Positions 4,000-25,411 are shown, numbered from the stretch's first letter. The stretch: 32,000 nucleotides of DNA from Halomicronema hongdechloris C2206 (GCF_002075285.3 NZ_CP021983.2:2070001-2102000), one strand, 5' to 3'. Notes: generated from the letters alone by a model not told the origin. Numbers and translations: made by a program.

Positions 4000-4027
4000 C
4001 ATTTTTCATCAGAACTATTCCAAATAG

Positions 4028-6730: not shown

Positions 6731-6747
6731 CGCTATTTGATTTTCGG

Positions 6748-7788: not shown

Positions 7789-7818
7789 ACAGGACTTACG
7801 CAGTTGAATGAATTTCGC

Positions 7819-7911: not shown

Positions 7912-8001
7912 TGCGTAACTCCTGCTGAAATCCTCCTTGAGAAACCAGATTTTTGTCAGCTGCAAATTCTTTATTCACACTCTTAAGCAGTAAGCAGTAT
8001 T

Positions 8002-9300: not shown

Positions 9301-9489
9301 GGAGATCCATAACTACATGACCACAACTATTGTCAGATGCTGTGTTTTCTTGTCAAGCAAATTGCCAGCACTATAACGCTGCGCCTGCATTCGCCTGTCC
9401 GTAATTGAGTTCAGAGGATATTTGGAAAGTACCCTGCAACCTTGCTCCAGACTGGATTCTGACCAACAGAGCCATACGCTCTAAAACGC

Positions 9490-9841: not shown

Positions 9842-9878
9842 AACTTCGGGCTCTTGGCCACTTTTGGTGATCCTTAAT
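9842..9878. repeat. ISL3-type terminal inverted repeat, left copy
   Basis: AACTTCGGGCTCTTGGCCACTTTTGGTGATCCTTAA is the reverse complement of 12204-12239 apart from one mismatch. The internal GGCTCTT start is characteristic of ISL3-family ends. Confidence 0.65.
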
Positions 9879-9887
9879 ACCAATTCT

Positions 9888-10236
9888 CTAAATTCCGGCT
9901 ACAGATAGAGACTCCAATATTGAAGCTCTCCCTGTAATCGAGGCGATGGTGCCCGTCGACAACGCAAGTAATTGCTCCCGGATCACCTGCCGCAATTCAT
10001 CCAAGGTTTTAGGACGGCACCAGCGCAATCGTTTTTTGAGGTATTGCCAGACTTGCTCAATGGGATTGCATTCCGGGGAATGCGCCGGTTGAAACATCAA
10101 GATGATGTTGTCGGGCACCTGTAGGCGCTTGGCCTTGTGCCATCCCGCTTGGTCGAGTTGGATAATTAAGAGACTGTCGGGATATTGCTCTGCAACGAGT
10201 TTGAGAAAGATCTCGAAGCAGTCGGTATTGCAGTGG
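9888..10236 (-). pseudogene. IS630-family transposase, C-terminal fragment
   Basis: By hand translation the frame stays open from 10236 down to the TAG at 9888: '...CFEIFLKLVAEQYPDSLLIIQLDQAGWHKAKRLQVPDNIILMFQPAHSPECNPIEQVWQYLK'. This is the DDE third-acidic-residue region of IS630/Tc1-like transposases. It is cut off exactly at the IS903-like left end (10237). Confidence 0.8.
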
Positions 10237-11311: not shown

Positions 11312-12207
11312 TTAGGCGAGTTGAACAAGCCACATTAGCGCCTCAAGACAACACCTCTGCTCAGCCTCCTACGCCTGTCCTGTTGGTGCCAAACCAAGCA
11401 GCTGAAAGTAAACGGGATCAGCGCTTGGAGCGCTATGAACAAGTCCATGCTTTACGACAGCAAGGCTATCAAATCAAAGACATTGCTCATCATCTCGGCA
11501 TGGGCAAACGCACTGTCTACACCTACCTGTCCCATGAGACTTTTCCAGAATGGCAACCTCCCATTCGACGACGTGGCAGTGGCCTTGATCCTTACAAAGG
11601 ATATCTCCTTGAACAATGGCAGCAAGGCCAACAACAAACCAAACAACTGTTCATTGACATCCAAAAGCAAGGCTATCAGGGCAGCTATGCCACCGTGGCC
11701 CGTTACACAAGGCAACTGCGTCAGTCACCGCCTCAAGCTCAGCCTCCACCTGAGACTCTCAACGATTTCCCGGGGCGAGGGCCTGCGCCTCAAAATCAAA
11801 CTGCTTCGTCAACTTCCTTAAGTGCCCGCCGTGCGGCTTGGTTACTCTTGCAGCGGGCTGAAAGCCTCACCACTGAGCAGAAGCAAACGCTGGAGCATCT
11901 CTATCAACAACCCGAGTTGACTGACGCGATTACCTTAGCCCAAGGCTTTATCGAACTGGTGCGTCAGCGGCTACCAGAAGATTTGGACGGTTGGTTGGCG
12001 AAGGCAGCCAATAGCTCGGTCAAAGTATTTCAGACGTTTGCGAAGGGCCTCAAGGAAGACTACGACGCCGTCAAAGCAGGTTTGACCTTGGAGGTGAGCA
12101 ATGGCCCCGTCGAAGGCCTCAATAATCGGCTCAAAATGTTAAAGCGACAGATGTTTGGCCGCGCTGGGCTGGATCTGTTAGCCAAACGGTTCATTTTGAC
12201 CAGTTAA
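11312..12207 (+). pseudogene. ISL3-family transposase, C-terminal portion
   Basis: The C-terminus 'LEVSNGPVEGLNNRLKMLKRQMFGRAGLDLLAKRFIL' is the ISL3 signature. The stop codon abuts the right IR. The first four codons of the track ORF (from 11299) come from the IS903-like IR. No zinc finger or DDE core is present upstream. Confidence 0.65.
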
Positions 12208-12239
12208 GGATCACCCAAAGTGGCCAAGAGCCCGAAGTT
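12204..12239. repeat. ISL3-type terminal inverted repeat, right copy
   Basis: TTAAGGATCACCCAAAGTGGCCAAGAGCCCGAAGTT is the inverted partner of 9842-9878. Confidence 0.65.
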
Positions 12240-12261
12240 GGCGTGAATCAGGTGCCGAAGT

Positions 12262-12549
12262 TCATGCGATTTTGCAGGCCAAGCGCTCAGCTAGTTGGAC
12301 CAAAGTCGCATCGTTGTCCGCTTCGACTAACTCCCGTAACACCTCATGATGAGAGGCTTGAAGCGTGGGTTGAGGGCCCCCAGTATAGGGTTTGGGGGCA
12401 ATGCTGCCGGTGGCTTGATACTGTTTCACCAGGAGACGGACGCTATCTTGACTCACTTGAAAGCGCTTGGCTAATTGTCGAATCGACCCTTCGCCTCGCT
12501 CATACAGGGTGACGATGCGGCGACGTAAATCGGCAGAGTGGGGGCACAT
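12262..12549 (-). pseudogene. IS630-family transposase, N-terminal HTH fragment
   Basis: 'DLRRRIVTLYERGEGSIRQLAKRFQVSQDSVRLLVKQYQATGSIAPKPYTGGP' is the typical IS630/Tc1 paired HTH N-terminus. The ORF ends after 95 aa with no catalytic domain following. Confidence 0.75.
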
Positions 12550-12651
12550 AGGGACTACCAGAGCAGTACAAAAGAGCGTACTGCATAAGCTTGCACACCG
12601 CTATACCTTCATGCTCCAGGGACTTGAGCTAGAGATCCCGCCCAATAGCAG

Positions 12652-13448
12652 TTGAATTTCCAAAATGAGAATTGCTGGCTATTACAGGACCCGCCTGCGG
12701 ACGGCGATCTGTGGGATGGTCCGAAAGTAGCGCAGTGGATGAGCGGCGTGTTAGGACGCCCAATCCATCCTCAGCGTGGTTGGGAATATCTCAAAAGTCT
12801 GGAGATGCGTCGCCGTCGTCCTCGTCCCGCTCACATTGACAGTGACATCGAAGTGCAAACGGCGTGGAAAAAAAACTCCCAACTCTCCTCGCCGACTTGA
12901 AGGCAACGTATCCTGAGGCGACTTTTCGAGTTTGGGCAGAAGATGAACATCGCATTGGCTTGCACCCCGTCAATCGCATGGTGTGGGTGCCCCTCGGCGA
13001 GACACCCATCGCTCCCGTGAACTTCAAATATGAGTGGCTGTGGCTCATCGGCTTTGTCGAGCCGAGCAGTGGTGAAACCTATTGGTGGATTGTGCCCCGG
13101 TTAAATTGGCCGATTCTCGAACGGGTCCTGGCGGATTTTGCCCAGGCTTTTGAGGTCAGTGCCACTAATCGCATAGTGTTGGTGCTCGACCAAGCCAGTT
13201 TCCATACGACTCATAAGTTAACAGTTCCAGACGGGATGCACTTGCTGTTTCTACCCCCGCGCTCACCTGAACTCCAACCCGCAGAACGACTCTGGCCACT
13301 CACGAACGAGGCCATTGCCAACCGCAGCTTTGAGTCTTTAGATGAGTTGGAAGCCGTCACAGCTCATCGATGCCGGGTGCTCATGAACCGTCCTGAGTTT
13401 ATGCGTGGGATAACTGGATATCACTGGTGGCTTGAGGCGGTAGCATGA
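12652..13448 (+). mobile_element. IS630-family transposase orfA/orfB (N-terminally truncated) joined by a -1 frameshift site
   Basis: orfA (12652-12900) contains '...DGPKVAQWMSGVLGR..RGWEYLKSL...RPRPAH...AWKK'. orfB (12864-13448) contains 'KLPTLLADLKATYPEATFRVWAEDEHRIGL...LVLDQASFH...FLPPRSPELQPAERLW'. Together they are collinear with single-ORF IS630 transposases. The usual N-terminal HTH region of about 100 aa is missing. Confidence 0.75.
12870..12876 (+). promoter_or_regulatory. Candidate -1 programmed frameshift heptamer A AAA AAC inside an A8 run
   Basis: In the orfA frame the codons are TGG AAA AAA AAC. A -1 slip puts the next codon at 12876 (CTC), which is exactly the orfB frame, giving AWKK(N/K)LPTLL. 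Confidence 0.45.
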
Positions 13449-13550
13449 GCGTGCTTGTTCAAACGGATTTTATATTAAGAAGCGCAGTGCCTTAGCCCGA
13501 TTTTTAGTCCATCATGGCACACCAGATGCAGCACTGTAGATAGCATGGAA

Positions 13551-14525
13551 TCAGATTAAGCCAACTCTGAATAAAGCGTTACCCAACCAGGGAAATTCTA
13601 AGAGAAGTGGCAAAAGACGACCTTTAATAGGAGCAATATCTCTAAATGATTGAAATGCCAATTCAGAGTTACACTCATTTAGGATATTGGTATTTAATGA
13701 AATGCTATCTTCAAGGTTTTTGACCTGATGCCACCATCTTGGAGGAATATAGATCACTTCCCCTGGTTCTAATACCGCTTCTATGGGTTTGGCATGGGCA
13801 TAGAGTGGAAATTGATTGAGATTAGGACTGAAAGCATTCACTTCTCCGCCGTATAGGAAATCCCCTTGATCCGGTGAGAAAAATATGATTTTTTTGCGTC
13901 CAGAAGTCAATGCAACCCATGCTGGCAAATCGTATGAATCGATGTGGAGACCAATAGATGAATCTTTAGGGCCGATATACACGGTAGAGCGCTCCAGTCG
14001 ATATTTCTTTTGCAGTTCCATTGGTAAGCGTTCGAGCCAATTGGGAAAATAAACAGGCACATCATAATCTTGACGTAGCTCAGGAAAGGAAGAGAGCCGT
14101 AATTCTTCCAAATAAAGAGAGCGTTGACGATCGTGGCTAGCTAAGTAGTCGAGATAGTCTGCCAGTTTCATGGTGATGTCTTGATTCCGGCTTCTAATTC
14201 CCTCAGAACAATCTGTGACCGTCACATTGATCGAGCCATAGGTTGACCTAAAAAAATCCAACGTCCATTTTGTTAAGGCAGGCCAGTTTTTAATAACATC
14301 TGTGAGAATAACAGGCTTGCAAACAGAGGCGTAGTCTCTAATAAATTCTTCGTAAGAAAGTTGACTGCGGCGATCGATCAAAGCAACGGCTTCCCAGGAA
14401 ACCTTAAATTGTTTCTTTTGCCATACTCGTTTGAGAAAATAAGTGGCAAGCAATACGGTAATGCCTAAGATAGGTAAAGCAAGTCCTAACCAGAAAATAT
14501 TAAAATGAGAGAGCAGTAATTGCAT
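13551..14525 (-). CDS. Membrane-anchored JmjC/cupin_8-type Fe(II)/2-oxoglutarate oxygenase (putative tailoring hydroxylase)
   Basis: N-terminal TM helix 'IFWLGLALPILGITVLLATYFL'. HxD facial-triad motif 'GLHIDSYD', 'WVALTSGRKKIIFFSP', and the distal His in 'GEVIYIPPRWWHQVKNLEDSISLNTN'. It is the last gene of the minus-strand biosynthetic operon. Confidence 0.75.
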   Translation of the reverse strand: MQLLLSHFNIFWLGLALPILGITVLLATYFLKRVWQKKQFKVSWEAVALIDRRSQLSYEEFIRDYASVCKPVILTDVIKNWPALTKWTLDFFRSTYGSINVTVTDCSEGIRSRNQDITMKLADYLDYLASHDRQRSLYLEELRLSSFPELRQDYDVPVYFPNWLERLPMELQKKYRLERSTVYIGPKDSSIGLHIDSYDLPAWVALTSGRKKIIFFSPDQGDFLYGGEVNAFSPNLNQFPLYAHAKPIEAVLEPGEVIYIPPRWWHQVKNLEDSISLNTNILNECNSELAFQSFRDIAPIKGRLLPLLLEFPWLGNALFRVGLI

Positions 14526-14615
14526 TGTTATACCAGGATTAAGTATTTCAAATTAGGAAAACTATGAGGATAAAAAGCAATGGCCAGTTAGTTGCCAACA
14601 GTTTGACTTCTATTC

Positions 14616-17540
14616 TTAGTTTGTCTGATTAAGATAACTGTTTAACTGCTCAGCTAAGACTTGTACCTGAGGTTTAGCGAGCATCGTATAATGATTTCCA
14701 GGCACAACAACGACCTCTACTGATTCAGAAGAGAGTTGATCCCATCCCCAACTCAAATCATCGGGGTAAGCGGCTCCTTCATCGCTATCTTTGCCCTGGA
14801 AAAGCAGCAATCGCTCTGGGTAAATAATTTGAGGTAAATAGTTTTGATAAGCTCGCAAGTTGCTCTTATAAAGCTTGAATAAGAGACAGAATTGGTGAAA
14901 ATCAATATCAGTTGGCATTAAGTTAGCTGCCTGCAATTGGTCTAGGAAATAATTTAACTTCTCTGCGGTTGGCAGTTTCCGTAATGTGTTGAATCGATCG
15001 TGGAACGTTGATAAATCGTACCCAGCGGCACCAGCTATATCTCTAGCAAAACCGACTAATGCTGTAACATCAAAATCACTCTCAACCTCCGCAGGCTTGC
15101 TTCTGGAAATGGGCGCTGGATTATCTAGCAATGCCAGCAGTTCGATCAAATGCCCTTGCTTTTGCAATTGTTGTGCCATTTCAAACGCAATGAAGCTTCC
15201 CATTGACCAAGATACCAACAGGTATGGACCTTCTGGTTGAGCAAGACGAAGTGTTTCAATATAATGAGCTGCCATGTCTTCTATGCGAGTATAGGGTTCG
15301 CGATCTCCGTACAGACCGAGTGCTTGCAACCCATAGCACGGGCGATCGGTGCCCAAACTGCGTACCAGTTGGTTGTAGCAAAGGACTGTTCCACCCATCG
15401 AATGGATGAAAAATAGGGGTCTCTTAGAACCTTGTGACTGTATTTTAATTAGAGGGGCTTCAATGTCTGGTTTGCTAAATTTTGTGAATGATGAGTTTAC
15501 TGCTGTATATCCATATTTTGTTGTAGAACTGGGCTGTAAAAACTCAACCTCTTGCAATTCTACAACACTCTCCTTAACAGCTCGAATAACCTGCTCAATT
15601 TCTTCATCTGTGTGGGAAGTTGATAGAAAAAGTCGGCGATTTTCTAAGGCGTAAACCCCTTTTTCTAAAAGATGATAAAACAATAAATCTATTCCTTTGA
15701 GAGTAGATGGATGGGTAAAACGAAAAAGTGAACCAAAATGAACAACCTGAATAGGTAACTGTTTCTGTTCAAAATAAGTATTAAGCGTTGTAGCTAATTG
15801 TGTTGTCTTCCGAGTTAAGGTTTCCTGGAGTAATGGTCCACTATGCTTGAGATGGTTGAGTGCAGCCCAAGCGGCCGCCATGACAAGCGGGTGTTTAAAG
15901 TAAGTTCCTGCAAATATAGTGGTTTCTGTCTGAGGATATGACGCATCCCCATAGTTCCAAAAGCCACCATCCAAAGCATCCATCAAGGCAGCTTTACCCG
16001 CTACAGCACCAATGGGAAAACCCACCCCAATTGCCTTGGCATAGGTCGTTAAGTCGGCGCGAATATTCCATAGCGCCTGTACGCCTCCAGGGTGGGTACG
16101 AAAGCCAGTAATCACCTCGTCGAAAATCAGGACAACGCCTGCGCTCTCAGTCCATTGCCTCAATTCATGCAAAAACGCTTTGGGTTGAAAACCGGGTCGC
16201 TCACTCTGGACTGGCTCAACCAAAACAGCCGCCAATTCGTGAGCGTGGGCTTTCAAGATGTTAAGAGATTGAGGATTTCCATAGTCTAAAACGATGGCTT
16301 GATCAGCTTTATATGACGGGATTCCCGGTGCATTGGGTACAGAATCTGGTGTTCCATCTCCACTGGGAATCCCCGTCGCTAACACATCATCCAAATTGCC
16401 ATGAAATGAGCCAGTGAAAAAAGCAATCTTGGAACGTCCAGTGACGGCACGTGCAATTCGGATGGCTCCCTCTATCGCGTCTTTACCAGAATTGCAAAAA
16501 GCAACCCGTTCTTGCCCGGTCAACTCACAGATTAATTCAGCGACGTTACCTGCTAGCCGCGATTGGGGACCCAGTTGAATCCCTTGCTGAATCTGCTGTT
16601 GAATCGCTTCTACAACAAAAGAGGGGGAATGCCCGAACAGAAGCGCACCAAATCCCATTGACATATCAATGTACTCATTGTCGTCAATGTCCCAAATTTT
16701 GGCCCCAGCAGCTCGTTGCGTGTAAATTGGATATACTAATTCTTTGATAGCAAGATTGAACCCGCTGACGGCTCTGGGATTAGCATGACAGGGGCGGTGT
16801 ATTTGGGTGAGCTGTTTGGATTTTTGGGTGAGCTGGCTCAGACGCTCAATTAATCCTTCTAAATGGTTTTGTTGACGAGTGCTCAATGTCTCTTTTTGAG
16901 GAGCGATTGCCCTTTTAGGTGGACTTGTACGATTGCTTGAGTGATTTTGGTTTTCCTGAGGCAATGAGGTAGAGGTTGTTGTTTGCTGTATATCTAACGG
17001 CGTAGAGACAGGTGTTCTGGCTTCCGAAGGAGATAATGTTTGCTGCTTTGATAAAGTATTGTGGCGCAACAAGTCTAGCTGTTTAGCCATTACTTGAAGC
17101 TGTTGTGCCAAGAGCTGTTTGACAGCAGTATTAGGAGTTGATATTTTTGGGAAATTTTCCAGCAAAGATGTTCCATTTTGACTCACTGTAGAGCTAGTAG
17201 ACCGTTGTGATTCATTAACATCGGGAATAGACTCTGTTGCTGACTCTTCCAGAGGTCTCTGTTTAGAGATATAAATAGCAAGGTCGTGAATCGTTGGAGT
17301 ATTCTCAAGCAATAAACGTAGAGAAACATTGATATCAAACTGTTTTCTGACCGCTCCACTCAGTTGCAGGGTGTGAATGGACTCTAGCCCCATTTCAAAA
17401 AAATGGGTGTGAACATCGATCGCAGAAGGATGGACACCCAGGATATCACTGGCAATCCTTGTGAGTTCTCCCAGGATTCTCTGAGTTGATGCATCGATCG
17501 GGGAAGAATTTGATATCGGCTGAACTTGAGAATGAGTCAT
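14616..17540 (-). CDS. ACP - class-III PLP aminotransferase (AMT) - thioesterase tridomain protein
   Basis: ACP 'FFEMGLESIHTL' (Ser54, nt 17379-17381). GSA-aminomutase-like AMT with 'IDMSMGFGALLFGHSP', 'LIFDEVITGFR' and 'TYAKAIGVGFPIGAV' (Lys502, about nt 16035-16037). TE with 'PLFFIHSMGG', 'VSWSMGS' (Ser779, about nt 15204-15206) and 'VPGNHYTM'. Confidence 0.9.
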   Translation of the reverse strand: MTHSQVQPISNSSPIDASTQRILGELTRIASDILGVHPSAIDVHTHFFEMGLESIHTLQLSGAVRKQFDINVSLRLLLENTPTIHDLAIYISKQRPLEESATESIPDVNESQRSTSSTVSQNGTSLLENFPKISTPNTAVKQLLAQQLQVMAKQLDLLRHNTLSKQQTLSPSEARTPVSTPLDIQQTTTSTSLPQENQNHSSNRTSPPKRAIAPQKETLSTRQQNHLEGLIERLSQLTQKSKQLTQIHRPCHANPRAVSGFNLAIKELVYPIYTQRAAGAKIWDIDDNEYIDMSMGFGALLFGHSPSFVVEAIQQQIQQGIQLGPQSRLAGNVAELICELTGQERVAFCNSGKDAIEGAIRIARAVTGRSKIAFFTGSFHGNLDDVLATGIPSGDGTPDSVPNAPGIPSYKADQAIVLDYGNPQSLNILKAHAHELAAVLVEPVQSERPGFQPKAFLHELRQWTESAGVVLIFDEVITGFRTHPGGVQALWNIRADLTTYAKAIGVGFPIGAVAGKAALMDALDGGFWNYGDASYPQTETTIFAGTYFKHPLVMAAAWAALNHLKHSGPLLQETLTRKTTQLATTLNTYFEQKQLPIQVVHFGSLFRFTHPSTLKGIDLLFYHLLEKGVYALENRRLFLSTSHTDEEIEQVIRAVKESVVELQEVEFLQPSSTTKYGYTAVNSSFTKFSKPDIEAPLIKIQSQGSKRPLFFIHSMGGTVLCYNQLVRSLGTDRPCYGLQALGLYGDREPYTRIEDMAAHYIETLRLAQPEGPYLLVSWSMGSFIAFEMAQQLQKQGHLIELLALLDNPAPISRSKPAEVESDFDVTALVGFARDIAGAAGYDLSTFHDRFNTLRKLPTAEKLNYFLDQLQAANLMPTDIDFHQFCLLFKLYKSNLRAYQNYLPQIIYPERLLLFQGKDSDEGAAYPDDLSWGWDQLSSESVEVVVVPGNHYTMLAKPQVQVLAEQLNSYLNQTN

Positions 17541-17622
17541 CAGCAGTTCCTTGGTTTGCTATATTCTTGTGTGACTGAGGGATATCGCGACTGCGTTGCT
17601 CTGGTGTAATCTAAACGTGAGA

Positions 17623-20600
17623 TTATTCATGCAGATTGAGTAGGTCTAGCTGTTGGGATATAATTTCTAGCTGTTGAGTAATTAGTTGTTCTAAGCTATG
17701 TTTTTCTAATTTGGTTTCGGTGCCAGTTTCTTGGTTATTTATTTCTTCTGAATTGATAGATTGATTGGGTTCACCCCTAGACAACGACTCTGGTGGCTCT
17801 AATTCATTAGAAACTTCAAAAGCATTACCTGTTTTGTGGCTGCTATGCTTCAAGTCTAATGGAGCGGGATTGTTCTTTGATGGTGCAGATGGCGGTGGCA
17901 AATTGTTGGTTTTAGGAGACTCAATCCAATAGCGCTGGCGTTCAAATGGATAGGTGGGCAAATGGACACGATGGCGTTGTTCGTAGGCGTAAAATCCTGA
18001 CCAGTCGATCGGTACACCAGCAAGCCAAAGATTTCCCAGGGTGTTGAGCAAGAATGCCATATCAGACTGTTGCTGATGGGGATGGCGGAGTGAAGCCAGA
18101 ACTGACGGTGAAGGGGATGAATCTGCATCAGGCTGGACGGCTAACTGACTCAATGACCCTCCCGGACCCACTTCCAAAAGGATTCGCTCCGGTTCTTGCT
18201 GCAAGATTGCCATATTCTCAGCAAACCGCACAGGCTGGCACATATGCTTTGCCCAGTAAGCGGGAGCAGTCGCCTCGTCAGGTGTAATCCAAGTCCCTGT
18301 GACATTGGATAAGTAAGGGATTTTAGGCGGCTGGAGATTAAAGGTTTTTGTCAGCTCGATTAGGGGAGTGGCGATCGGTTCTAGCATTCTGGAATGAAAG
18401 GCATGAGAGGTTTGTAACCGGCAATAGGCGAAACCCTTTTCGGTTAAATGCTGAATTAATTCATCCACAGCGTCCGTAGAACCTGAAATAACACAGAGAG
18501 AGGGAGCTTGAATTGCCGCAAGGAATAGATTTTCCTTCAACAAAGGGGCTACTTCTGCCGCTGAAAGGGGAACAGCCAGCATCGCTCCCCCTGGCAATTC
18601 CTGAATCATCTGGGCTCTTTTTGTAACCAGGGTTAGGGCATCCTCTAGAGACATGACCCCAGCCAGGCAAGCGGCAACATATTCACCGATACTATAGCCC
18701 AGCATTACCTGAGGATAAATCCCCCACGACATCCACAATTGAGCTAATGCATATTCAATGATGAAGAGAATCGGTTGAGCCAGGAAGGTTTGATTTAATG
18801 TCTGGGTGGCGGTATCCGCCTGTCCTTCAGCACGAGCTAGCAGTTTACGGAAATCGAGGCGGGAATTAGGGGAATTGCGATCGATCTCCTCTTGCATATC
18901 AGGGTTGGTTCGGTCTTTGCCAGGATACAACACGTCGCGTAAATCCAGACCTAAAAGAGGCTGAAGAAAGTTGCAACACTGATCAACCTGGTTTCGAAAC
19001 GTGGATTCGCCCTGATACAGGTGCCAAGCCATGTTGACATAGTGGGTGCCTAATCCGGGAAACAGAAACGCGACGGGACGTCCTCCCCGGGGTTGATGGT
19101 AAGTTAGGACTCGTTTGGCATCTTGAAATGCAGTAATGGCATCGTTAACATCGCGGCAGACAACGGCTCGACGATGGCTAAATGCTCGACGACCGAGTTG
19201 CAACGTATAAGCGACATCCGCCAGGTTGAGGTCAGGATTTTGTTGGAGATAATCCACGAAATTGGCAGTTGCCGTCTCTAGGGCAGTGCTTGTTTTGGCG
19301 GATATCACCAGGAGTTGCCAGGGGCGAGAGTTTCCAGAAGGCGCTTGCGGCGGCGCTTCTTCTAAAACCACATGGGCATTGGTTCCTCCAAGCCCAAAGG
19401 CGCTTACCCCTGCCCGTCTGGGGATTCCGTTGGTTTCCCAATCGGTCAGTTTGGTATTGACATAGAAAGGAGTGTTGGTAAAGTCTATTTCTGGATTAGG
19501 GTGTTCAAAGTGCAATGTGGGGGGAATCTGTTGATGCTTAAGGGCCAGTAATGTTTTAATCAAACCAGCAACACCGGCGGCTCGATCAAGGTGACTAATA
19601 TTGGTTTTTACTGAACCGATCGCACATTGTGCCTGTTTGGTAAAGCCATCCCATCTTTCCTGATTCCTTCCGGCACAAAACACATTGTCCAGTGCCCTGA
19701 TTTCAATCGGATCTCCCAAAGCGGTTCCGGTTCCGTGGGTTTCGATATACGTGATTGTTTCGGGAGCAAAGCCAGCGATCGCCTGGGCATCGGCAATCAC
19801 TTCGGCTTGGCCGGTGACGCTGGATGCAGTAAAACTCACCTTCTCAAATCCATCGTTATTAATAGCTGAGCCCTTAATCACGGCATAAATTGAGTCACCA
19901 TCTCCTAAAGCCTCTTCTAGTCTTTTAAGTACCACAACTCCCACCCCACTGCCGAACGGACAACCTTCGGCTTTGGCATCAAATGCCCGACAGTGACCAT
20001 CTGAAGAAGCCATTCCACCCTCTTGATAGAAATAACCCTGCTTTTGTGGAACGGTGATTGAGACACCTCCAGCCAACGCCAGATCGCAGTCGTAGTTCAG
20101 TAATCCCCGACAAGCTAAGTGAATGGCAACAAGTGAGGTAGAACACGCGGTACTCACATTAACACTGGGTCCCTTCAAGTTAAGCTTGTAGGAAACCCGT
20201 GTGGCTAGGAAGTCTTGGATATTGCCAATGTTAATGGATAAAGACCCTACTGTTTGGATCGAGTCAGGATTGGGAATGAGATTGTTTAAGCAATAACTAC
20301 TTGAGGCGCTTCCGGCATAAACCCCAATTAATCCTGCCTTTGAAGACTCATAGCCTGCATTCTCCAGGGCAGACCAGGCAGATTCCAAGAAAAACCGGTG
20401 CTGCGGGTCAGTGATTTTAGCTTCCCGCGGTGTAAATCCAAAGAACGAAGCATCAAACCATTCAATGTCGTCCAGCGCAAATCCCGCCTTGACATAGTTG
20501 GGGTCGTGTAACCAAGTTGGATCTACCCCTGAAGCCAGTAGCTCCTCATCGGAAAAGAATGAAATAGACTCCACGCCATTGCATAAATTTTGCCAAAACT

Positions 20601-20688
20601 GTTCAACACTCCTGGCTCCCGGAAACCGACCGGCTATGCCAATGATGGCTATGCCCTCCAAGGACGGATCGCGCTTCATCTCATCCAT
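17623..20688 (-). CDS. Type I PKS, KS-AT didomain with no carrier domain, ending in a low-complexity tail and a coiled-coil-like helix
   Basis: KS motifs 'STACSTSLVAIH', 'ETHGTGTALGDPIE' and 'KTNISHLDRAAG'. AT motifs 'GYSIGEYVAACLAG' and 'SHAFHS' (malonyl-type HAFH). The post-AT linker is 'YPFERQRYWI'. It ends in '...LEQLITQQLEIISQQLDLLNLHE'. The start overlaps the upstream stop in ATGGATGA (20681-20688). Confidence 0.9.
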   Translation of the reverse strand: MDEMKRDPSLEGIAIIGIAGRFPGARSVEQFWQNLCNGVESISFFSDEELLASGVDPTWLHDPNYVKAGFALDDIEWFDASFFGFTPREAKITDPQHRFFLESAWSALENAGYESSKAGLIGVYAGSASSSYCLNNLIPNPDSIQTVGSLSINIGNIQDFLATRVSYKLNLKGPSVNVSTACSTSLVAIHLACRGLLNYDCDLALAGGVSITVPQKQGYFYQEGGMASSDGHCRAFDAKAEGCPFGSGVGVVVLKRLEEALGDGDSIYAVIKGSAINNDGFEKVSFTASSVTGQAEVIADAQAIAGFAPETITYIETHGTGTALGDPIEIRALDNVFCAGRNQERWDGFTKQAQCAIGSVKTNISHLDRAAGVAGLIKTLLALKHQQIPPTLHFEHPNPEIDFTNTPFYVNTKLTDWETNGIPRRAGVSAFGLGGTNAHVVLEEAPPQAPSGNSRPWQLLVISAKTSTALETATANFVDYLQQNPDLNLADVAYTLQLGRRAFSHRRAVVCRDVNDAITAFQDAKRVLTYHQPRGGRPVAFLFPGLGTHYVNMAWHLYQGESTFRNQVDQCCNFLQPLLGLDLRDVLYPGKDRTNPDMQEEIDRNSPNSRLDFRKLLARAEGQADTATQTLNQTFLAQPILFIIEYALAQLWMSWGIYPQVMLGYSIGEYVAACLAGVMSLEDALTLVTKRAQMIQELPGGAMLAVPLSAAEVAPLLKENLFLAAIQAPSLCVISGSTDAVDELIQHLTEKGFAYCRLQTSHAFHSRMLEPIATPLIELTKTFNLQPPKIPYLSNVTGTWITPDEATAPAYWAKHMCQPVRFAENMAILQQEPERILLEVGPGGSLSQLAVQPDADSSPSPSVLASLRHPHQQQSDMAFLLNTLGNLWLAGVPIDWSGFYAYEQRHRVHLPTYPFERQRYWIESPKTNNLPPPSAPSKNNPAPLDLKHSSHKTGNAFEVSNELEPPESLSRGEPNQSINSEEINNQETGTETKLEKHSLEQLITQQLEIISQQLDLLNLHE

Positions 20689-23600
20689 TCGGTTTTCTCC
20701 TCTGCTTCATCCGTTGTTGATTGTTTTGGATCGCAACTTGTTTCTGCTTTGCACGATCCTGAGCATGTTGGAATACAGGTCTTTTAGCAATTTCTTGGCT
20801 CAGGTGCTCTGCCAATGCGCTAATGGTTGGATACTCAAATAAGTCAGCGATCGGAAAGTCCTGATGGAGCCGATCTCGCATTTTGCTGCGGACTTGAACG
20901 GTTAAAAGCGAGTCTCCTCCCAGGTCTAAAAAGTTATCGTAGATGCCTACGAGTTCAACACCTAGTAACTCTTGCCAGATTTCAGCCAACGTTTGTTCTA
21001 GCTCATTGCGAGGCGCAACATAAGGGTTGTTCAACTCTGGTCGTGGATGCGTTGGCTTAGATAGATTAACCTTCTCTAGAGTCTCCAGAAAGTTAGAATC
21101 TTCTCCGGCATTTTCTTGTTCAATCTGAGTTAGAAAATCGCAAGTTGATACCACAACCTGAGGAATTGTTCTTCCTAAAAGGCGATCGAATACTTCGGCC
21201 CCCTCCTGGGGTAAAATTTTCTGCTGAAGTGTTTCGGCTCGCCATGCTTGCAGGTTAAAGGGCACTGTCGTGTCTACTGCCATCCCTACCTCTTGCCAAG
21301 CATCCCAGTTAATCGAAAAGACTGAGCGATGGGAAGAAGATAAGAAGTGATGATGGGCAAAAACATCTAAGAACGCATTGGCTGCACAATAGTCTACCTG
21401 TCCAAACCCGCCTTGGATGGAGGTAAGAGAAGAACAAAGCACTAAGAAATCGAGTGGAATATCCTTGAACACAGCTTCAAGAATCCGCGTTCCTTTAACT
21501 TTAGGAGCCAGAATTCTTTCTACCTCATCAGGTGTTTTTCGTTGAATCACACCTCCACCAGGAACACCAGCCGCATGGATCACGCCATTGATCTGCCCAA
21601 ACTGAGCGCAGGACTGATCCACAACGGCTTGCATCTGTTCAAACTGAGTGACATCCGCACTAATGATTTGCACTTCAGAGCCCAGTGCTTCTAGTTCTAG
21701 TATGATTTGAATCTTGCAGCTAATCTTGTCTTGTTCGTCATGAGTGGTCAACCAGTGTTGCCACGCTTCCCGTGGAGGAAATGCCGAACGTCCAATCAGA
21801 ATCAGTTTGGCTTGAACGGTTTTTGCCAGATGTTGAGCCAGTGTTAATCCAATGCCACCCAGTCCACCCGTAATCAGATAAACTCCACCAGGTTTTAACC
21901 GTACTGTCCTTGCTGGGGGGCGATCGAATCGCACGGGTTCAAACGCTTGCACCCAGCGCTGACGCCCCCGATAGGCAATCACTAGATCGGGTGATGGCGT
22001 TGTCAATTCTGCTAGAAGTTGTTCTGCCAAGTTTTCGACTTGCCAATGTTCTGGAATAGGAAACTCAACATCAATACTGCGGCAATGAAGATTTGGATAT
22101 TCTCGGGAAATCACTCGAACAGGTCCAAGGACAGTCGCCTTTTCTGGGCAGAGCGGTTCACCCCCTGTAACCGATTGCATCTGATTTGAAATCACCGTGA
22201 TTTGAACGTCATCGGTAATCGCCTGTTTTCCTAACGCCTGAGCTAGAAAAAGCAGGCTGTAAAACCCTAAATCCTGTAGTTTGTTAACTTGTTCAAAGCC
22301 TAAATTTGGAAAATTGTGCGAGGTAACAGTCCATGAATGAATGATCTTTGTTGGAAATTGATTGTGCTTTAAAAGGGCTTTGAATAAGACATGATAGTCT
22401 TCCTGTTGTTGAGGATTGAGGCTGTATTCTTTTTCGTTCCACTGGGTAAAGTGCGACCCAATGCTTACGGTGATAATCTCGTGGTTTTGCTGTTGCAAAT
22501 TCGTTACAATCTGGGAACCTAAACCGCATTCATCCAAGAATACAAGAATACAGGATGATTGATGTAACTCATCTTGGTCCAATAAAACTGGAGGTAAAGC
22601 GGGTTTCCAGAAAGGAAGGTAAAACCAGTCTGCGATGTCCAGTTTTCTACTCTTTGATTTTTCTTTGAATGGCGCGGCAACACGCTGTGGCTGCTTTTGT
22701 AAATCAATCCAATACCGCTGGCGTTCAAAGGGATACGTAGGTAACGGGAGTCTATGGCGACGCTCATGAGCATAAAAAACAGCCCAGTCTACTTTGACGC
22801 CCATCAACCATAAACGACCGAGTGTTGTGAGCAAAACCGCAATATCTGACTTTTGCTCTTTGAGGTGACGAACCGAGGTAAGTGTCACCAATTCATCGGG
22901 TTGATGTTGCTTAGCAAAGGTACTGAGGGTGCGTCCTGGACCAACCTCTAATAATATTTGCTTGGGCTTGGTGAGAACTTCGCGAATTCCAGCACTAAAG
23001 CACACGGGTTGTCTGAGTTGCTGTGTCCAATAATGAGGATCGATCGCCTCGCTTGGTGTCATCCAAGTGCCGCTGAGATTGGATATAAACGGAATGGTAG
23101 GCGGATTCAGTTTCACGCCTTGGAGAGCTTGAGTAAAAGGTTGCAGAATCGGTTCCATCATTTCAGAGTGGAAGGCATGAGAGGTATGTAAACGGCGGCA
23201 ACTTATGTTCTGTTCTTGCAATTTTTGTTGCAACTGCTCCACAGCCTCAGTCGGACCTGAAACCACACAAGAAGATGGTGCATTACTTCCAGCTAGGGAA
23301 AGGGCTGCTCCTAACAATGGTTGTATTTGTTGCTCAGAACATTGAACAGCTAGCATCGCACCGAGGGGACACTGCTGCATCAGTCGTCCGCGTGTGGCAA
23401 CTAGCGCTAAGGCGTCTTCCAGGGAGAAAACACCAGCCAGACAAGCCGCGACATATTCGCCGATGCTGTGACCGATCATGGCGGTGGGATTCACGCCCCA
23501 AGACATCCACAATTTGGCAAAGGCATACTCAATGACAAATAAGGCAGGCTGGGCGTAGATAGTGTCGTTGAGGGAGAATTCAAAGTTCGGAGCTTGCAAC

Positions 23601-25411
23601 TCAACGTTAGATTGGTCTCCTGATTCCTGATTCCTGACTCCTGGCTCCTCATCTGGATAGAGAACTTGTCGTAGATCTAAACCGAGATGAGGTTTAAGCA
23701 ATTCGCAACAGCGATCGACTTGCTCAGTAAATGCCAGCTCGGTATGGTAGAGTTCCCGCGCCATATTGACATACTGGGTTCCCTGTCCCGGAAACATGAA
23801 CACAAGGGAACGATGACCGAGTTCTTGATAATGAGACAAAACTTGTTGAGAATCAGGCGAGCTTAGGGCTTGTGTGGCGTCATTTGAGTTTTGACAAATT
23901 ACCATGCGGCGATGCTCAAATCCTCGGCGCCCCACTTGCAGGGTATAGGCTACATCGGCAAGGTTACAATCAGGATGGTGCTGAAGGTAATTTACTAAGT
24001 TAACTGTAGCAGTGTCTAAAGCGGTACTGGTTTTGGCAGAGAGGAATAATAACTGCCAGGGACGAGAAGAGTCAGAAACTTCGATGGGAGGCGCTTCTTC
24101 CAGAATTACATGGGCATTAGTGCCACCAATTCCAAACGAACTAACACCAGCGCGACGAGGGGTACCGTTTGTTTTCCATTCAGCAAGTTGGGTATTGACG
24201 TAGAAAGGACTGGTGGCGAAATCAATTTTAGGATTGGGTTTCTCAAAGTGTAGGCTAGGCGGAATTTGCTTGTGTTCAAGGGCAAGAACGGTTTTGATCA
24301 GACCCGCCACTCCTGCTGCTGCATCCAAATGTCCAATATTGGTTTTAACAGAACCGATCGCACAGAATTGCTTCTGTTGCGTTTTTACCCGAAAGGCTTG
24401 GGTCAGAGCAGCGATTTCAATTGGATCGCCAAGAGAGGTTCCCGTCCCGTGAGCTTCGACATAGGTGATGGTATCCGGCTCAACTTCTGCGATCGCTTGA
24501 GCTTTCCGAATAACCTTTGCCTGACTATCGATACGAGGGGCTGTATAGCTGACCTTGAAAGAACCGTCGTTGTTGGTGGCTGAGCCTTTGATTACAGCGT
24601 GGATTGTGTCTCCATCAGCAAGGGCGTTTTTTAGTCGCTTCAACACGACAATTCCTACACCACTGCCTCTTACCGTTCCTTGGGCTTTGGCATCAAAGGC
24701 ACGACAATGACCATCTGGAGAATTAATGCTACCTTCTTGATACAAGTAACCAGAGGATTCTGAAATGGAAACGCCTCCTGCCAATGCCAGATGGCATTCA
24801 CCACCAAGCAAGCTACGACAAGCCATATGAACGGCAACTAGTGAGGTGGAGCAGGCGGTTTGAATATCGACACTTGTGCCCTCCAGGTTCAGCTTATAGG
24901 ACACACGGGTCGTGAGAAAATCTTTGTCGTTGGAGATCACCAGTTGATAGGGATCGACAGAGGCTGCAAAGCTGCCTGCTGCATAACGCTTGAGCATGTA
25001 GCCGTTCAATCCTGTACCTGCATAAACTCCGATCGCTCCTCGATAGGTTTCAGCGTCATAGCCAGCCTGTTCAAGGGCTTCCCAGGCACACTCTAGAAAC
25101 AGTCGATGTTGTGGGTCTGTAATTTCTGCTTCTTTAGCACTGAAGCCGAAAAACGAGGCATCAAATAATTCGATGTTCTCTAAAACGCCTGCTGCTCTGA
25201 CATATTGAGGATGATCTAGCAACGCTGATTCAACTCCCAGAGCAATTAGTTCTTTATCATTAAAGAACGAAATTGATTCCACTCCATTTTTTTGGTTTTC
25301 CCAAAATTTTTCAATGGTATTTGCCTTGGGAAAGCGCCCACTCATGCCAATAATGGCTATTTCTAAGCCATTTGTCTGATTTTTCGTCACTAATGGGTTG
25401 ATTCTACTCAT
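20681..25411 (-). CDS. Type I PKS module KS-AT-KR-ACP
   Basis: KS motifs 'QTACSTSLVAVH', 'EAHGTGTSLGDPIE' and 'KTNIGHLDAAAG'. AT motifs 'GHSIGEYVAACLAG' and 'SHAFHS' (malonyl-type). KR motifs 'YLITGGLGGIGL' and '...VDYCAANAFLD', with no LDD motif seen. ACP motif 'LDLGGDSLLTVQV'. Confidence 0.9.
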   Translation of the reverse strand: MSRINPLVTKNQTNGLEIAIIGMSGRFPKANTIEKFWENQKNGVESISFFNDKELIALGVESALLDHPQYVRAAGVLENIELFDASFFGFSAKEAEITDPQHRLFLECAWEALEQAGYDAETYRGAIGVYAGTGLNGYMLKRYAAGSFAASVDPYQLVISNDKDFLTTRVSYKLNLEGTSVDIQTACSTSLVAVHMACRSLLGGECHLALAGGVSISESSGYLYQEGSINSPDGHCRAFDAKAQGTVRGSGVGIVVLKRLKNALADGDTIHAVIKGSATNNDGSFKVSYTAPRIDSQAKVIRKAQAIAEVEPDTITYVEAHGTGTSLGDPIEIAALTQAFRVKTQQKQFCAIGSVKTNIGHLDAAAGVAGLIKTVLALEHKQIPPSLHFEKPNPKIDFATSPFYVNTQLAEWKTNGTPRRAGVSSFGIGGTNAHVILEEAPPIEVSDSSRPWQLLFLSAKTSTALDTATVNLVNYLQHHPDCNLADVAYTLQVGRRGFEHRRMVICQNSNDATQALSSPDSQQVLSHYQELGHRSLVFMFPGQGTQYVNMARELYHTELAFTEQVDRCCELLKPHLGLDLRQVLYPDEEPGVRNQESGDQSNVELQAPNFEFSLNDTIYAQPALFVIEYAFAKLWMSWGVNPTAMIGHSIGEYVAACLAGVFSLEDALALVATRGRLMQQCPLGAMLAVQCSEQQIQPLLGAALSLAGSNAPSSCVVSGPTEAVEQLQQKLQEQNISCRRLHTSHAFHSEMMEPILQPFTQALQGVKLNPPTIPFISNLSGTWMTPSEAIDPHYWTQQLRQPVCFSAGIREVLTKPKQILLEVGPGRTLSTFAKQHQPDELVTLTSVRHLKEQKSDIAVLLTTLGRLWLMGVKVDWAVFYAHERRHRLPLPTYPFERQRYWIDLQKQPQRVAAPFKEKSKSRKLDIADWFYLPFWKPALPPVLLDQDELHQSSCILVFLDECGLGSQIVTNLQQQNHEIITVSIGSHFTQWNEKEYSLNPQQQEDYHVLFKALLKHNQFPTKIIHSWTVTSHNFPNLGFEQVNKLQDLGFYSLLFLAQALGKQAITDDVQITVISNQMQSVTGGEPLCPEKATVLGPVRVISREYPNLHCRSIDVEFPIPEHWQVENLAEQLLAELTTPSPDLVIAYRGRQRWVQAFEPVRFDRPPARTVRLKPGGVYLITGGLGGIGLTLAQHLAKTVQAKLILIGRSAFPPREAWQHWLTTHDEQDKISCKIQIILELEALGSEVQIISADVTQFEQMQAVVDQSCAQFGQINGVIHAAGVPGGGVIQRKTPDEVERILAPKVKGTRILEAVFKDIPLDFLVLCSSLTSIQGGFGQVDYCAANAFLDVFAHHHFLSSSHRSVFSINWDAWQEVGMAVDTTVPFNLQAWRAETLQQKILPQEGAEVFDRLLGRTIPQVVVSTCDFLTQIEQENAGEDSNFLETLEKVNLSKPTHPRPELNNPYVAPRNELEQTLAEIWQELLGVELVGIYDNFLDLGGDSLLTVQVRSKMRDRLHQDFPIADLFEYPTISALAEHLSQEIAKRPVFQHAQDRAKQKQVAIQNNQQRMKQRRKPNG

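What the first reader, a model, noticed from the sequence alone, without database searches (positions are those of the whole stretch)
14616..17694. Split terminal PKS module (KS-AT | ACP-AMT-TE) with an aminotransferase fused directly to the releasing thioesterase, and a duplicated QQLxxxxxQLDLL helix
- The last extension module is divided between two proteins. KS-AT has no carrier domain. The next ORF begins with the ACP, followed by a class-III PLP aminotransferase and then a TE.
- In the AMT-containing megasynthases I know (MycA/ItuA-type lipopeptide starters, McyE/NdaF-type), the AMT is followed by NRPS condensation chemistry that uses the new beta-amine. Here the next domain is the offloading TE, so the beta-amino thioester would be released or cyclised directly.
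- The KS-AT protein ends with 'LEQLITQQLEIISQQLDLL' (17626-17694).
- A very similar 'VKQLLAQQLQVMAKQLDLL' lies between the ACP and the AMT (about 17067-17120).
- These could be complementary coiled-coil docking elements for the split module. Alternatively they could be a footprint of a fission or insertion event that placed the ACP between an ancestral KS-AT linker and the AMT.
- Both are embedded in long S/T/Q/N/P-rich low-complexity linkers.
Basis: partly seen in the sequence, partly recalled or inferred. Interest (0 to 1): 0.7.

Follow-up and report, generated by a model that had tools for sequence, protein, structure and literature searches.

The report
Split PKS module with docking helices
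The last module of a cyanobacterial peptide-polyketide assembly line is cut into two proteins that each carry the same short Gln/Leu-rich helix, a pairing that recurs wherever this kind of module is split and so probably holds the halves together, and the module ends in a very rare aminotransferase-thioesterase fusion.

Summary
On the minus strand, 17623-20688 encodes KS-AT with no carrier domain, ending in SLEQLITQQLEIISQQLDLL. Next, 14616-17540 encodes ACP, then TAVKQLLAQQLQVMAKQLDLLRH, then a class-III aminotransferase (AMT) and a thioesterase (TE). The window is from Halomicronema hongdechloris C2206.

The second helix is not special to this locus. It lies about 60-100 residues before the AMT in 116 of 120 homologues, whether ACP or AT precedes it. 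The first helix is the informative one. All 12 carrier-less KS-AT proteins among the 120 closest KS-AT homologues end in it, and none of the other 108 has it. In 13 clear split systems, plus 2 divergent ones, an upstream AT-ending protein carries a C-terminal copy and the next gene is ACP-helix-AMT. These systems span at least three phyla. Fused relatives, including a fused KS-AT-ACP-AMT-TE, have only the pre-AMT helix.

This supports an intramodular docking pair: a C-terminal helix binding an internal helix. Binding itself is not shown. I found no description of the pair in the held literature.

The AMT-TE fusion is very rare. Only 2 of 1.84 billion representative proteins match through both domains. 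The catalytic residues are intact. The likely chemistry is beta-amination on the ACP followed by TE release of a beta-amino acid terminus. The product is unknown.

The parts
17623..20688 (-). Gene for the KS-AT half of the terminal PKS module (1021 aa). It has no carrier domain.
   Evidence: Pfam finds KS (aa 11-395), the KS-AT linker and AT (aa 541-885), with no PP-binding domain. The KS motifs TACSTS, HGTGT and NISHL are present, as are the AT motifs GYSIG and HAFH, the latter typical of malonyl-specific ATs. It is 100% identical to a Halomicronema hongdechloris C2206 protein.
17638..17697 (-). C-terminal tail helix SLEQLITQQLEIISQQLDLL (aa 998-1017), four residues before the stop. This is the proposed docking helix of the KS-AT subunit.
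   Evidence: It scores 27.7 bits (E = 1.5e-8) against an HMM built from pre-AMT helices, and shuffles of the tail reach at most 6.7 bits. The same helix ends all 12 carrier-less KS-AT homologues and none of the 108 others. It is conserved in L081 and L082, although in L082 the preceding linker is no longer alignable.
17698..17913 (-). Low-complexity linker (aa 926-997) between the post-AT linker motif YPFERQRYW (aa 913-921, nt 17926-17952) and the tail helix.
   Evidence: It is 49% S/T/Q/N/P. It cannot be aligned with the equivalent stretch of the L082 homologue.
14616..17540 (-). Gene for the ACP-helix-AMT-TE half of the module (974 aa).
   Evidence: Pfam finds PP-binding, Aminotran_3 and Thioesterase. 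It is 100% identical to a Halomicronema hongdechloris protein that NCBI names 'glutamate-1-semialdehyde 2,1-aminomutase'.
17268..17465 (-). ACP domain (aa 26-91). The phosphopantetheine serine is S54 (nt 17379-17381). There is no N-terminal docking extension.
   Evidence: Pfam PF00550 matches. S54 is invariant in P0001-P0004. The AF2 model gives a confident four-helix ACP at aa 17-94.
17061..17129 (-). Internal pre-AMT helix TAVKQLLAQQLQVMAKQLDLLRH (aa 138-160). This is the proposed partner of the tail helix.
   Evidence: The element is found in 116 of 120 AMT homologues. AF2 predicts a single isolated helix at aa 138-160 (pLDDT about 70-78) between disordered linkers at aa 99-136 and 160-216. 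It lies outside all solved MycA constructs, which begin at the equivalent of about aa 220.
15537..16883 (-). Class-III PLP aminotransferase domain (aa 220-668). The PLP lysine is K502 (nt 16035-16037).
   Evidence: phmmer against the MycA AMT structures gives E = 5e-134 (6KFM) and 3e-139 (6KFU) over aa 220-668. K502, D474 and E442 lie in invariant columns. SGKDA replaces the usual SGTEA at aa 351-355, and this change is shared only with P0002.
14643..15422 (-). Type I thioesterase domain (aa 707-966) fused directly after the AMT.
   Evidence: Pfam PF00975 matches at E = 1.4e-32. S779 (WSMG), D806 and H950 (GNH) are invariant in P0001-P0004. The AF2 model is poor here because the alignment is shallow.
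20681..25411 (-). Preceding PKS module, KS-AT-KR-ACP (1576 aa). It supplies a beta-hydroxy intermediate to the split module.
   Evidence: Pfam. The syntenic part of relative L081 is 77-88% identical.
13551..14525 (-). JmjC/cupin_8 oxygenase gene immediately downstream of the TE.
   Evidence: Pfam PF13621 matches at E = 6e-35. It is syntenic and 88% identical in L081. Cupin_8 genes also occur in the AMT clusters L085 and L087.

Best explanation
**Overall.** The window holds the end of an NRPS-PKS assembly line. Its final chain-extension module is made of two polypeptides.

**Chemistry (inferred from the domain families).**
1. KS-AT loads malonate onto the ACP of the second protein.
2. KS-AT condenses the malonyl unit with the incoming beta-hydroxyacyl chain.
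3. The PLP-dependent AMT converts the ACP-bound beta-ketone to a beta-amine.
4. The TE, fused directly behind the AMT, releases the chain. The product therefore ends in a 3-amino (5-hydroxy) carboxylic acid, or in a lactone or lactam derived from it.

**How the halves are held together (supported by comparison, not shown physically).** The two halves share copies of one short amphipathic Gln/Leu helix with the pattern (L/I)ExxIxQQLxxMxxQLxLL.
- One copy sits at the extreme C-terminus of KS-AT.
- The other is internal, between the ACP and the AMT, flanked by long disordered linkers.
- The internal copy is a standard accessory of PKS-embedded AMT domains. It probably forms a dimeric stalk for the homodimeric AMT.
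- When the module is split, the KS-AT subunit carries a second copy that joins this stalk. The most likely form is a 2+2 helical bundle with the conserved glutamines in the seam.
- The ACP is left dangling on its C-terminal tether, within reach of KS, AT, AMT and TE.

**Status of each step.** Domain identities and the co-occurrence of the helices are shown here. Binding, stoichiometry, helix orientation and the mode of release are inferred.
For: **Domains and catalytic residues.**
- The domain order comes from Pfam.
- Catalytic residues are present: KS Cys/His/His, AT GYSIG and HAFH, ACP S54, AMT K502, TE S779/D806/H950.
- The AMT is homologous to the crystallised MycA AMT (E about 1e-134).

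**The internal helix is a general feature of embedded AMTs.**
- The helix HMM hits 116 of 120 homologues.
- The helix precedes the AMT in both KS-AT-ACP-helix-AMT and KS-AT-helix-AMT-ACP proteins.
- Stand-alone AMT ORFs (L001, L014, L017) lack it.

**The tail helix is specific to split modules.**
- 12 of 12 carrier-less KS-AT proteins have it, against 0 of 108 other KS-AT homologues.
- 13 clear pairs have a tail helix upstream of an ACP-helix-AMT gene:
  - the window, L081 and L082;
  - L084, L085 and L086;
  - L047;
  - L003 and L037;
  - L087, L088, L089 and L090.
- L033 and L023 add two more divergent, probable pairs.
- Named hosts include Cyanobacteria, Acidobacteria and Pseudomonadota, and probably Gemmatimonadota and Actinomycetota.

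**Fused controls have a single helix.**
- P0241.
- The eight fused KS-AT-ACP-AMT (ACP-before-AMT) proteins in the hit list.
- The L091 proteins.

**Signs of selection and co-variation.**
- The helix is kept while the linker in front of it diverges completely.
- In L089 both helices carry the same 4-residue insertion.
- Cognate pairs are slightly more alike than shuffled pairings (107 against 96 +/- 4 identities, p about 0.004).

**Structure prediction.** AF2 predicts an isolated helix between disordered linkers.

**No alternative docking element.** The ACP protein has no N-terminal docking extension.
Against: - No physical test of binding was possible. Multimer prediction could not be run with these tools.
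- The permutation result is confounded by shared ancestry and by composition.
- The shared insertion in L089 could reflect duplication within that lineage rather than co-adaptation.
- Fused proteins keep the internal helix, so it has a role independent of docking. The tail copy could serve only to dimerise KS-AT.
- The AMT of this lineage has K in place of the phosphate-contacting T of SGTEA. Its effect is unknown.
- In this genome an upstream NRPS gene carries a frameshift, and IS fragments replace genes that follow the cluster in a relative. The pathway may therefore be inactive in this strain.
- The mode of TE release and the product are unknown.
Confidence: 0.62

Rival explanations
1. **Fission or recombination footprint.** The tail helix is a non-functional remnant. 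It was left when an ancestral AMT-containing gene broke, for example KS-AT-helix-AMT-ACP. Alternatively, an ACP was inserted between an AT-proximal helix and the AMT.
For: - KS-AT-helix-AMT-ACP proteins exist and carry the closest fused AMTs, at 58-62% identity.
- In those proteins the helix sits about 50-100 residues after the AT, as it does in the tail-helix proteins.
Against: - A neutral remnant should decay. Instead the helix is retained in at least 13 split systems across phyla, while the adjacent linker diverges beyond alignment.
- The fused AMT-TE relative P0241 has no AT-proximal helix.
- The two window copies are only 63% identical in DNA, so there was no recent duplication.
- Breaking either fused architecture at one point does not give helix | ACP-helix-AMT.
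Confidence: 0.1
2. **Dimerisation only.** Each helix forms its own homodimeric coiled coil, stabilising the KS-AT dimer and the AMT dimer separately. The two subunits meet only through transient contacts of the ACP with KS and AT.
For: - The internal helix is present in fused proteins, where no docking is needed.
- C-terminal dimerisation elements are known in PKS modules (from my own knowledge, not checked here).
Against: - The tail helix matches the AMT-helix profile itself rather than being a generic coiled coil.
- It appears only on KS-AT proteins whose neighbour carries the same helix.
- Both helices share a length variant in L089.
- Without docking, the ACP-first subunit has no visible recognition element.
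Confidence: 0.2
3. **Decaying pathway.** The locus is inactive in this strain, so the architecture has no present function here.
For: - There is a 1-nt frameshift in the NRPS A domain at about 29319-29376.
- Three transposase fragments lie directly downstream.
- The two methyltransferase and two ABC-transporter genes found in relative L081 are absent from this window.
Against: - The frameshift is at a TT/TTT run and may be a sequencing error.
- Both terminal-module ORFs are intact with all catalytic residues.
- The same split architecture is intact in L081 and L082. The design is therefore functional, whatever the state of this copy.
Confidence: 0.25

Closest known systems
MycA/ItuA-type and McyE/NdaF-type PKS-embedded aminotransferase modules (KS-AT-ACP-AMT-C...)
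   Same: - The AMT is a clear homologue of the crystallised MycA AMT: E about 1e-134 over aa 220-668, with the PLP lysine aligned.
- The order ACP then AMT is the same.
- The cyanobacterial fused versions carry the same pre-AMT helix.
   Different: - Here the module is the last one rather than an early one.
- A TE follows the AMT instead of a condensation domain, so the beta-amine is not used for peptide-bond formation on the assembly line.
- The module is split between AT and ACP.
- The Bacillus locus L020 shows no helix hit of 9 bits or more. The solved MycA constructs omit the linker region.
[quoted passage not shown]
   Same: These are short helical elements of about 20-25 residues at subunit ends that assemble dimeric subunits through helical bundles. 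Split-module junctions using such elements are known in trans-AT systems (review PMC9113145, read).
   Different: - According to that review, cis-AT junctions are predominantly intermodular (ACP/KS), with a C-terminal element binding an N-terminal one.
- Here the junction is intramodular (AT/ACP) in a cis-AT module.
- The partner helix is internal, after the ACP, rather than N-terminal.
- The two partners are copies of the same sequence element.
- The class 2 type tails seen on neighbouring KS-AT-ACP proteins (...AELEELTEEEA...) are unrelated in sequence.
KS-AT-helix-AMT-ACP proteins of Nostoc, Rhizonema and Tolypothrix (P0009-P0032; uncharacterised)
   Same: They carry the closest fused AMT domains, at 58-62% identity. 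The same helix lies shortly after the AT.
   Different: They are single polypeptides. The ACP follows the AMT. There is no TE and only one helix.
P0241, a fused KS-AT-ACP-helix-AMT-TE protein (1877 aa, metagenomic)
   Same: It has the same terminal-module domain set and the same AMT-TE fusion. It is 54% identical over the AMT C-terminus plus TE. A methyltransferase gene lies nearby, as in L081.
   Different: It is not split, and it has no helix between AT and ACP.

Membership tests
PKS-embedded class-III aminotransferase (MycA-type AMT domain) | Fold-type I, class-III aminotransferase homology extending over the N-terminal extension seen in the MycA structures | tested here: met
   Pfam PF00202 matches at E = 2.3e-55. 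phmmer against 6KFM and 6KFU gives E = 5e-134 and 3e-139 over aa 220-668.
PKS-embedded class-III aminotransferase (MycA-type AMT domain) | Schiff-base lysine and the PLP-binding Asp and Glu | tested here: met
   K502, D474 and E442 fall in invariant columns of 12- and 42-sequence alignments.
PKS-embedded class-III aminotransferase (MycA-type AMT domain) | SGTEA phosphate-binding motif | tested here: inconclusive
   The window protein and P0002 read SGKDA, whereas P0003, P0004 and nearly all other homologues read (S/T/D)GTEA. The consequence for cofactor binding is unknown.
PKS-embedded class-III aminotransferase (MycA-type AMT domain) | Transamination of an ACP-bound beta-ketoacyl thioester | not testable with these tools
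   This needs an enzyme assay.
cis-AT modular PKS extension module | KS with Cys-His-His, AT with the GxSxG serine and a specificity motif, and an ACP serine | tested here: met
   TACSTS, HGTGT and NISHL are present, as are GYSIG and HAFH, and S54 in GLES. The three domains lie on two polypeptides.
Type I chain-releasing thioesterase (PF00975) | Alpha/beta-hydrolase TE with a Ser-Asp-His triad at the C-terminus of the last module | tested here: met
   PF00975 matches at E = 1.4e-32. S779, D806 and H950 are invariant in P0001-P0004.
Class 1 / class 2 cis-AT PKS docking domains | A C-terminal element of an ACP-ending subunit that binds an N-terminal element of a KS-starting subunit | tested here: not met
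   The junction is AT/ACP. The downstream partner helix is internal (aa 138-160). The ACP protein has only about 20 residues before the ACP. The definition is taken from PMC9113145.
Helical-bundle docking domains in general (works-like claim) | Specific physical association of the two helices | not testable with these tools
   Only co-occurrence and conservation are shown. Multimer prediction and binding assays were unavailable.
Siderophore biosynthetic gene cluster | Biosynthetic genes functionally linked to a TonB receptor and uptake genes, plus chelating residues | tested here: inconclusive
   A TonB receptor, a periplasmic binding protein and an MFS gene lie at 4094-9300. They are separated from the PKS genes by IS fragments. 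Relative L081 has methyltransferases and ABC exporters at that position instead.

The most novel reading that the evidence does not exclude
The Gln/Leu helix may be a previously unrecognised, widely distributed class of megasynthase docking element.
- It would be a self-recognising 'Q-zipper' stalk that normally anchors the AMT dimer within a module.
- Simply copying it onto the C-terminus of KS-AT would let a cis-AT module be split inside the module, between AT and ACP.
- The C-terminal helix would then dock onto an internal helix rather than an N-terminal one.
- If so, it is a portable tag of about 20 residues for recruiting carrier-protein-linked tailoring and release units to a KS-AT in trans.

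Separately, the AMT-TE unit may be a compact cassette for ending a chain as a free beta-amino acid.
Probability: 0.5. Interest if true: 0.75.

Novelty: new variant of a known kind. Interest (0 to 1): 0.6.

Why it matters
**Docking rules.** Docking domains set the order in which megasynthase subunits assemble, and they are the main handles for re-engineering these enzymes.
- The review read here says cis-AT subunit junctions are predominantly intermodular (ACP/KS). It describes split-module junctions for trans-AT systems.
- A conserved helix pair that joins AT to ACP inside a module, using a terminal helix and an internal one with the same sequence, would extend those rules.
- It would also suggest a simple evolutionary route to a split module: copy an existing self-associating helix.
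- It could serve as a small, possibly orthogonal connector for synthetic biology.

**The linker element.** It gives a function to a conserved linker element next to embedded aminotransferases. That element was left out of the solved MycA constructs.

**Termination logic.** The AMT-TE ending is a rare way to finish a chain. It should give peptide-polyketides with a free C-terminal beta-amino acid, which is a useful target for genome mining.

Tried and rejected
- **Recent duplication of the helix.** Rejected. DNA identity is 36 of 57 and protein identity 10 of 19.
- **Helix specific to this cluster.** Rejected. It is found in 116 of 120 AMT homologues.
- **Known product.**
  - Cyanochelin B was checked and its cluster is built differently, ending in a reductive release domain and with no aminotransferase mentioned.
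  - A search for Halomicronema hongdechloris with 'siderophore' gave nothing relevant.
  - Papers on beta-amino polyketide residues and on puwainaphycin describe AMT followed by other domains and do not mention docking.
- **Literature on the helix.** Searches for an AMT docking or coiled-coil element and for a terminal AMT-TE module found no description. The library is incomplete, so this is not proof of absence.
- **L091.** I fetched it to test whether a 4-residue-insertion subfamily also has matching tails. Its genes are broken inside the AT, probably by assembly frameshifts, so it is not a true AT/ACP split. It serves only as a single-helix control.
- **Charge complementarity.** In the cyanobacterial pairs I saw E in tail helices and K in partner helices. 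I did not rely on this, because the K also occurs in the fused KS-AT-helix-AMT-ACP proteins.
- **AF2 model of the whole ACP-AMT-TE protein.** The TE was poorly modelled (mean pLDDT 65), so I ran no fold search.
- **Single-chain helix fusion for AF2.** Not attempted.
- **Not done.** A-domain specificity and product structure were not predicted.
Full report
**Source and layout**

The ACP-AMT-TE protein and the KS-AT protein are each 100% identical to proteins of Halomicronema hongdechloris C2206. The minus strand carries, in order:
- an NRPS, C-A / A(C-terminal part)-PCP-C-A-PCP, at 29319-31961 and 25435-29376;
- a KS-AT-KR-ACP module at 20681-25411;
- a KS-AT protein at 17623-20688;
- an ACP-AMT-TE protein at 14616-17540;
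- a JmjC/cupin_8 oxygenase at 13551-14525.

Downstream lie three transposase fragments, and then on the plus strand a TonB-dependent receptor, a periplasmic binding protein and an MFS transporter. A type II thioesterase and a PPTase lie at the far end.

**Check of the observation**

- The KS-AT protein has KS, linker and AT domains but no carrier domain. It ends ...SLEQLITQQLEIISQQLDLLNLHE*.
- The next protein begins with an ACP (aa 26-91, S54).
- It then has the helix TAVKQLLAQQLQVMAKQLDLLRH at aa 138-160.
- A class-III aminotransferase and a thioesterase follow.
- The linkers around both helices are 49-63% S/T/Q/N/P.
- The two helices share 10 of 19 residues and 36 of 57 bases, so they are not a recent duplication.
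- I built a 23-residue HMM only from pre-AMT helices of homologues. The KS-AT tail scores 27.7 bits against it (E = 1.5e-8 over the window's six-frame ORFs). Nothing else in the window scores above 3 bits. The best of 5000 shuffles of the tail reaches 6.7 bits.

**The internal helix**

This helix is not particular to this locus.
- The HMM finds it in 116 of 120 homologues of the AMT protein.
- It always lies some 60-100 residues before the start of the AMT.
- Pfam coordinates show two fused architectures. One is KS-AT-ACP-helix-AMT (for example P0086). The other is KS-AT-helix-AMT-ACP (P0009, P0023). So the helix travels with the AMT, not with the ACP.
- Stand-alone AMT ORFs (L001, L014, L017) start directly at the AMT's N-terminal extension and lack the helix.
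- Many acidobacterial versions are lengthened by exactly one heptad (QQLQISAQQLEIMSQQLELL).
- The MycA AMT has been crystallised (6KFM, 6KFR, and an ACP-AMT fusion, 6KFU). Those constructs start at the equivalent of residue about 220 and omit this region.
- AF2 models it as a lone helix (pLDDT about 70-78) between disordered linkers.
- From the sequence pattern, hydrophobic residues fall at a, c and d heptad positions and the nearly invariant glutamines at g. This suggests a polar-zipper seam. That is my inference only.

**The tail helix**

This is the new information.
- Among the 120 closest homologues of the KS-AT protein, 12 lack a carrier domain. All 12 end in the helix within their last 25 or so residues. 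None of the other 108 (KS-AT-KR-ACP, KS-AT-MT-ACP and so on) has it.
- Wherever I fetched the context, the gene after a tail-helix protein begins ACP-helix-AMT. What follows the AMT varies:

| Locus | Source | Domains after AMT |
|---|---|---|
| L081, L082 | not named (metagenomic contigs) | TE |
| L084 | Phormidium nigroviride | C-A-PCP |
| L085 | not named | C-TauD |
| L086 | not named | not annotated on record (gene reaches the contig end) |

- In the other direction, four ACP-first AMT proteins that I picked from the hit list without knowing their neighbours all have an upstream AT-ending protein with the helix near its C-terminus (L087-L090).
- The one-genome-per-species scan adds L047 (Pyrinomonadaceae), L003 (a Pseudomonadota MAG) and L037 (Burkholderia multivorans).
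- It also adds two more divergent, probable cases: L033 (Gemmatimonas) and L023 (Streptomyces).
- One ACP-first locus, L008, had no KS-AT gene immediately upstream, so it says nothing either way.

*Controls.*
- Fused modules have a single helix. These include P0241, a fused KS-AT-ACP-helix-AMT-TE in which the post-AT linker runs straight into the ACP.
- L091 was first taken for a split. It is broken inside the AT, probably by assembly errors, and likewise has one helix.

*Signs of selection.*
- Between the window and L082 the roughly 70-residue linker before the tail helix cannot be aligned, yet the helix is conserved.
- In L089 both helices carry the same unusual 4-residue insertion: RQLQTMS-HLMT-QQLRVL and QQLEVMS-NLMS-QQLNLL.
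- Cognate tail and internal helices are slightly more alike than permuted pairings (p about 0.004). Shared ancestry weakens this test.

**Interpretation of the helices**

The simplest reading has three parts.
1. The internal helix is a self-associating stalk of the dimeric AMT.
2. Split modules carry a second copy on the KS-AT C-terminus, which joins that stalk and so docks the two subunits.
3. The ACP protein has no N-terminal docking extension, so there is no other visible recognition element.

This differs from the catalogued docking classes. The review read here states that cis-AT junctions are predominantly intermodular ACP/KS junctions using a C-terminal and an N-terminal element (PMC9113145). 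In this locus the junction is AT/ACP within a module, the partner is internal, and both partners are the same element.

The fused AMT-TE relative lacks an AT-proximal helix. No single break of either fused architecture gives the observed arrangement. A neutral remnant would not persist across phyla.

A dimerisation-only role for the tail helix cannot be excluded without binding data.

**The AMT-TE ending**

- Of the 120 best homologues only P0001-P0004 have ACP-AMT-TE. P0039 and P0087 have AMT-C-PCP-TE.
- I ran an exhaustive phmmer search of 1.84 billion representatives with the AMT C-terminus plus TE (aa 560-974). Only two representatives matched through both parts: P0002 and P0241. All other hits matched the TE alone.
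- In homologues the AMT is otherwise followed by a condensation domain, a luciferase-like monooxygenase, an ACP or the end of the protein.
- The catalytic residues are in place: K502 (PLP), D474 and E442 in the AMT, and S779, D806 and H950 in the TE.
- One oddity is SGKDA in place of SGTEA. It is shared only with the 79%-identical P0002.
- The AT carries HAFH, which indicates malonyl specificity (the assignment rests on established AT motifs).

Given that the preceding module is KS-AT-KR-ACP, the expected ACP-bound product is a 3-amino-5-hydroxyacyl chain. The TE would release it by hydrolysis or by lactone or lactam formation. This follows from what is known of the domain families and is not shown here.

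Relatives have methyltransferase genes next to the module (L081, L092). This would fit later methylation of the free amine or carboxylate, but that is speculation. These genes are missing from the window.

**State of the locus**

- The NRPS gene is interrupted by a 1-nt frameshift inside an A domain.
- IS fragments occupy the place where L081 has methyltransferase and ABC-transporter genes.
- This copy may be decaying, or the frameshift may be a sequencing error.
- A link to the neighbouring iron-uptake genes is possible but unsupported.

**Novelty and score**

- All the domains are of known kinds.
- What appears to be new is the conserved tail and internal helix pair at an intramodular cis-AT junction, and the rare AMT-TE termination unit.
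- I found no description of either in the held literature. That library is incomplete.
- I rate the finding as a new variant of a known kind, with interest about 0.6.
- The comparative evidence is strong for co-occurrence. It is only indirect for binding.

Noticed in passing
window 29319-29376 (minus strand): The NRPS gene is split by a 1-nt frameshift inside an adenylation domain, between the motifs RPELTAER and VPNPFS. The sequence reads GAACGCTTGTGCCC where TTT is expected. This is either a sequencing error at a T run or an inactivating mutation.
   Followed up: partly
window 27000-30000: GC content is 0.58-0.59 here, against 0.42-0.50 in the PKS genes. The matching NRPS segment (26329-27579) is only 59% identical in protein to relative L081, while the PKS genes are 78-89% identical. 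This suggests a replaced A-domain or module segment.
   Followed up: partly
window 10549-13448: There are three different transposase fragments (DDE_Tnp_1, ISL3, DDE_3) directly after the JmjC gene. The relative L081 has two methyltransferase and two ABC-transporter genes at this position, and none of those four has a match in the window.
   Followed up: partly
window 2589-2942 (minus strand): A 117-aa ORF hits Pfam CBF_beta, the eukaryotic core-binding factor beta family (E = 2e-7, 31 bits, above the cut-off). This is unexpected in a cyanobacterium.
   Followed up: no
window 16482-16484 (K353 of the AMT): The near-invariant SGTEA motif of the aminotransferase reads SGKDA here and in the 79%-identical P0002. 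P0003, P0004 and other homologues do not share this change.
   Followed up: partly
L047 (Pyrinomonadaceae MAG), about 3-5470 and 6243-16309: There are two divergently oriented copies of the KS-AT(tail helix) / ACP-helix-AMT gene pair. Their tail helices are identical and their internal helices nearly so. This is either an inverted duplication or an assembly artefact.
   Followed up: no
L089 4255-5853 and 6001-9483: The tail helix and the internal pre-AMT helix of this system both carry the same 4-residue insertion relative to the family consensus.
   Followed up: partly
P0009-P0032 (Nostoc, Rhizonema, Tolypothrix, Brasilonema): This is a large, uniform group of proteins of about 1630 aa with the order KS-AT-helix-AMT-ACP. 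The aminotransferase sits before the carrier domain, like a reductive-loop domain.
   Followed up: partly
L084 3056-6516 and L086 3114-6523: The AMT clusters of Phormidium nigroviride and a relative contain a four-gene set: 3-hydroxyacyl-CoA dehydrogenase, ACP, acyl-CoA dehydrogenase and a HAD-type hydrolase. This is typical of hydroxymalonyl- or methoxymalonyl-ACP extender-unit synthesis. L082 has part of the set.
   Followed up: no
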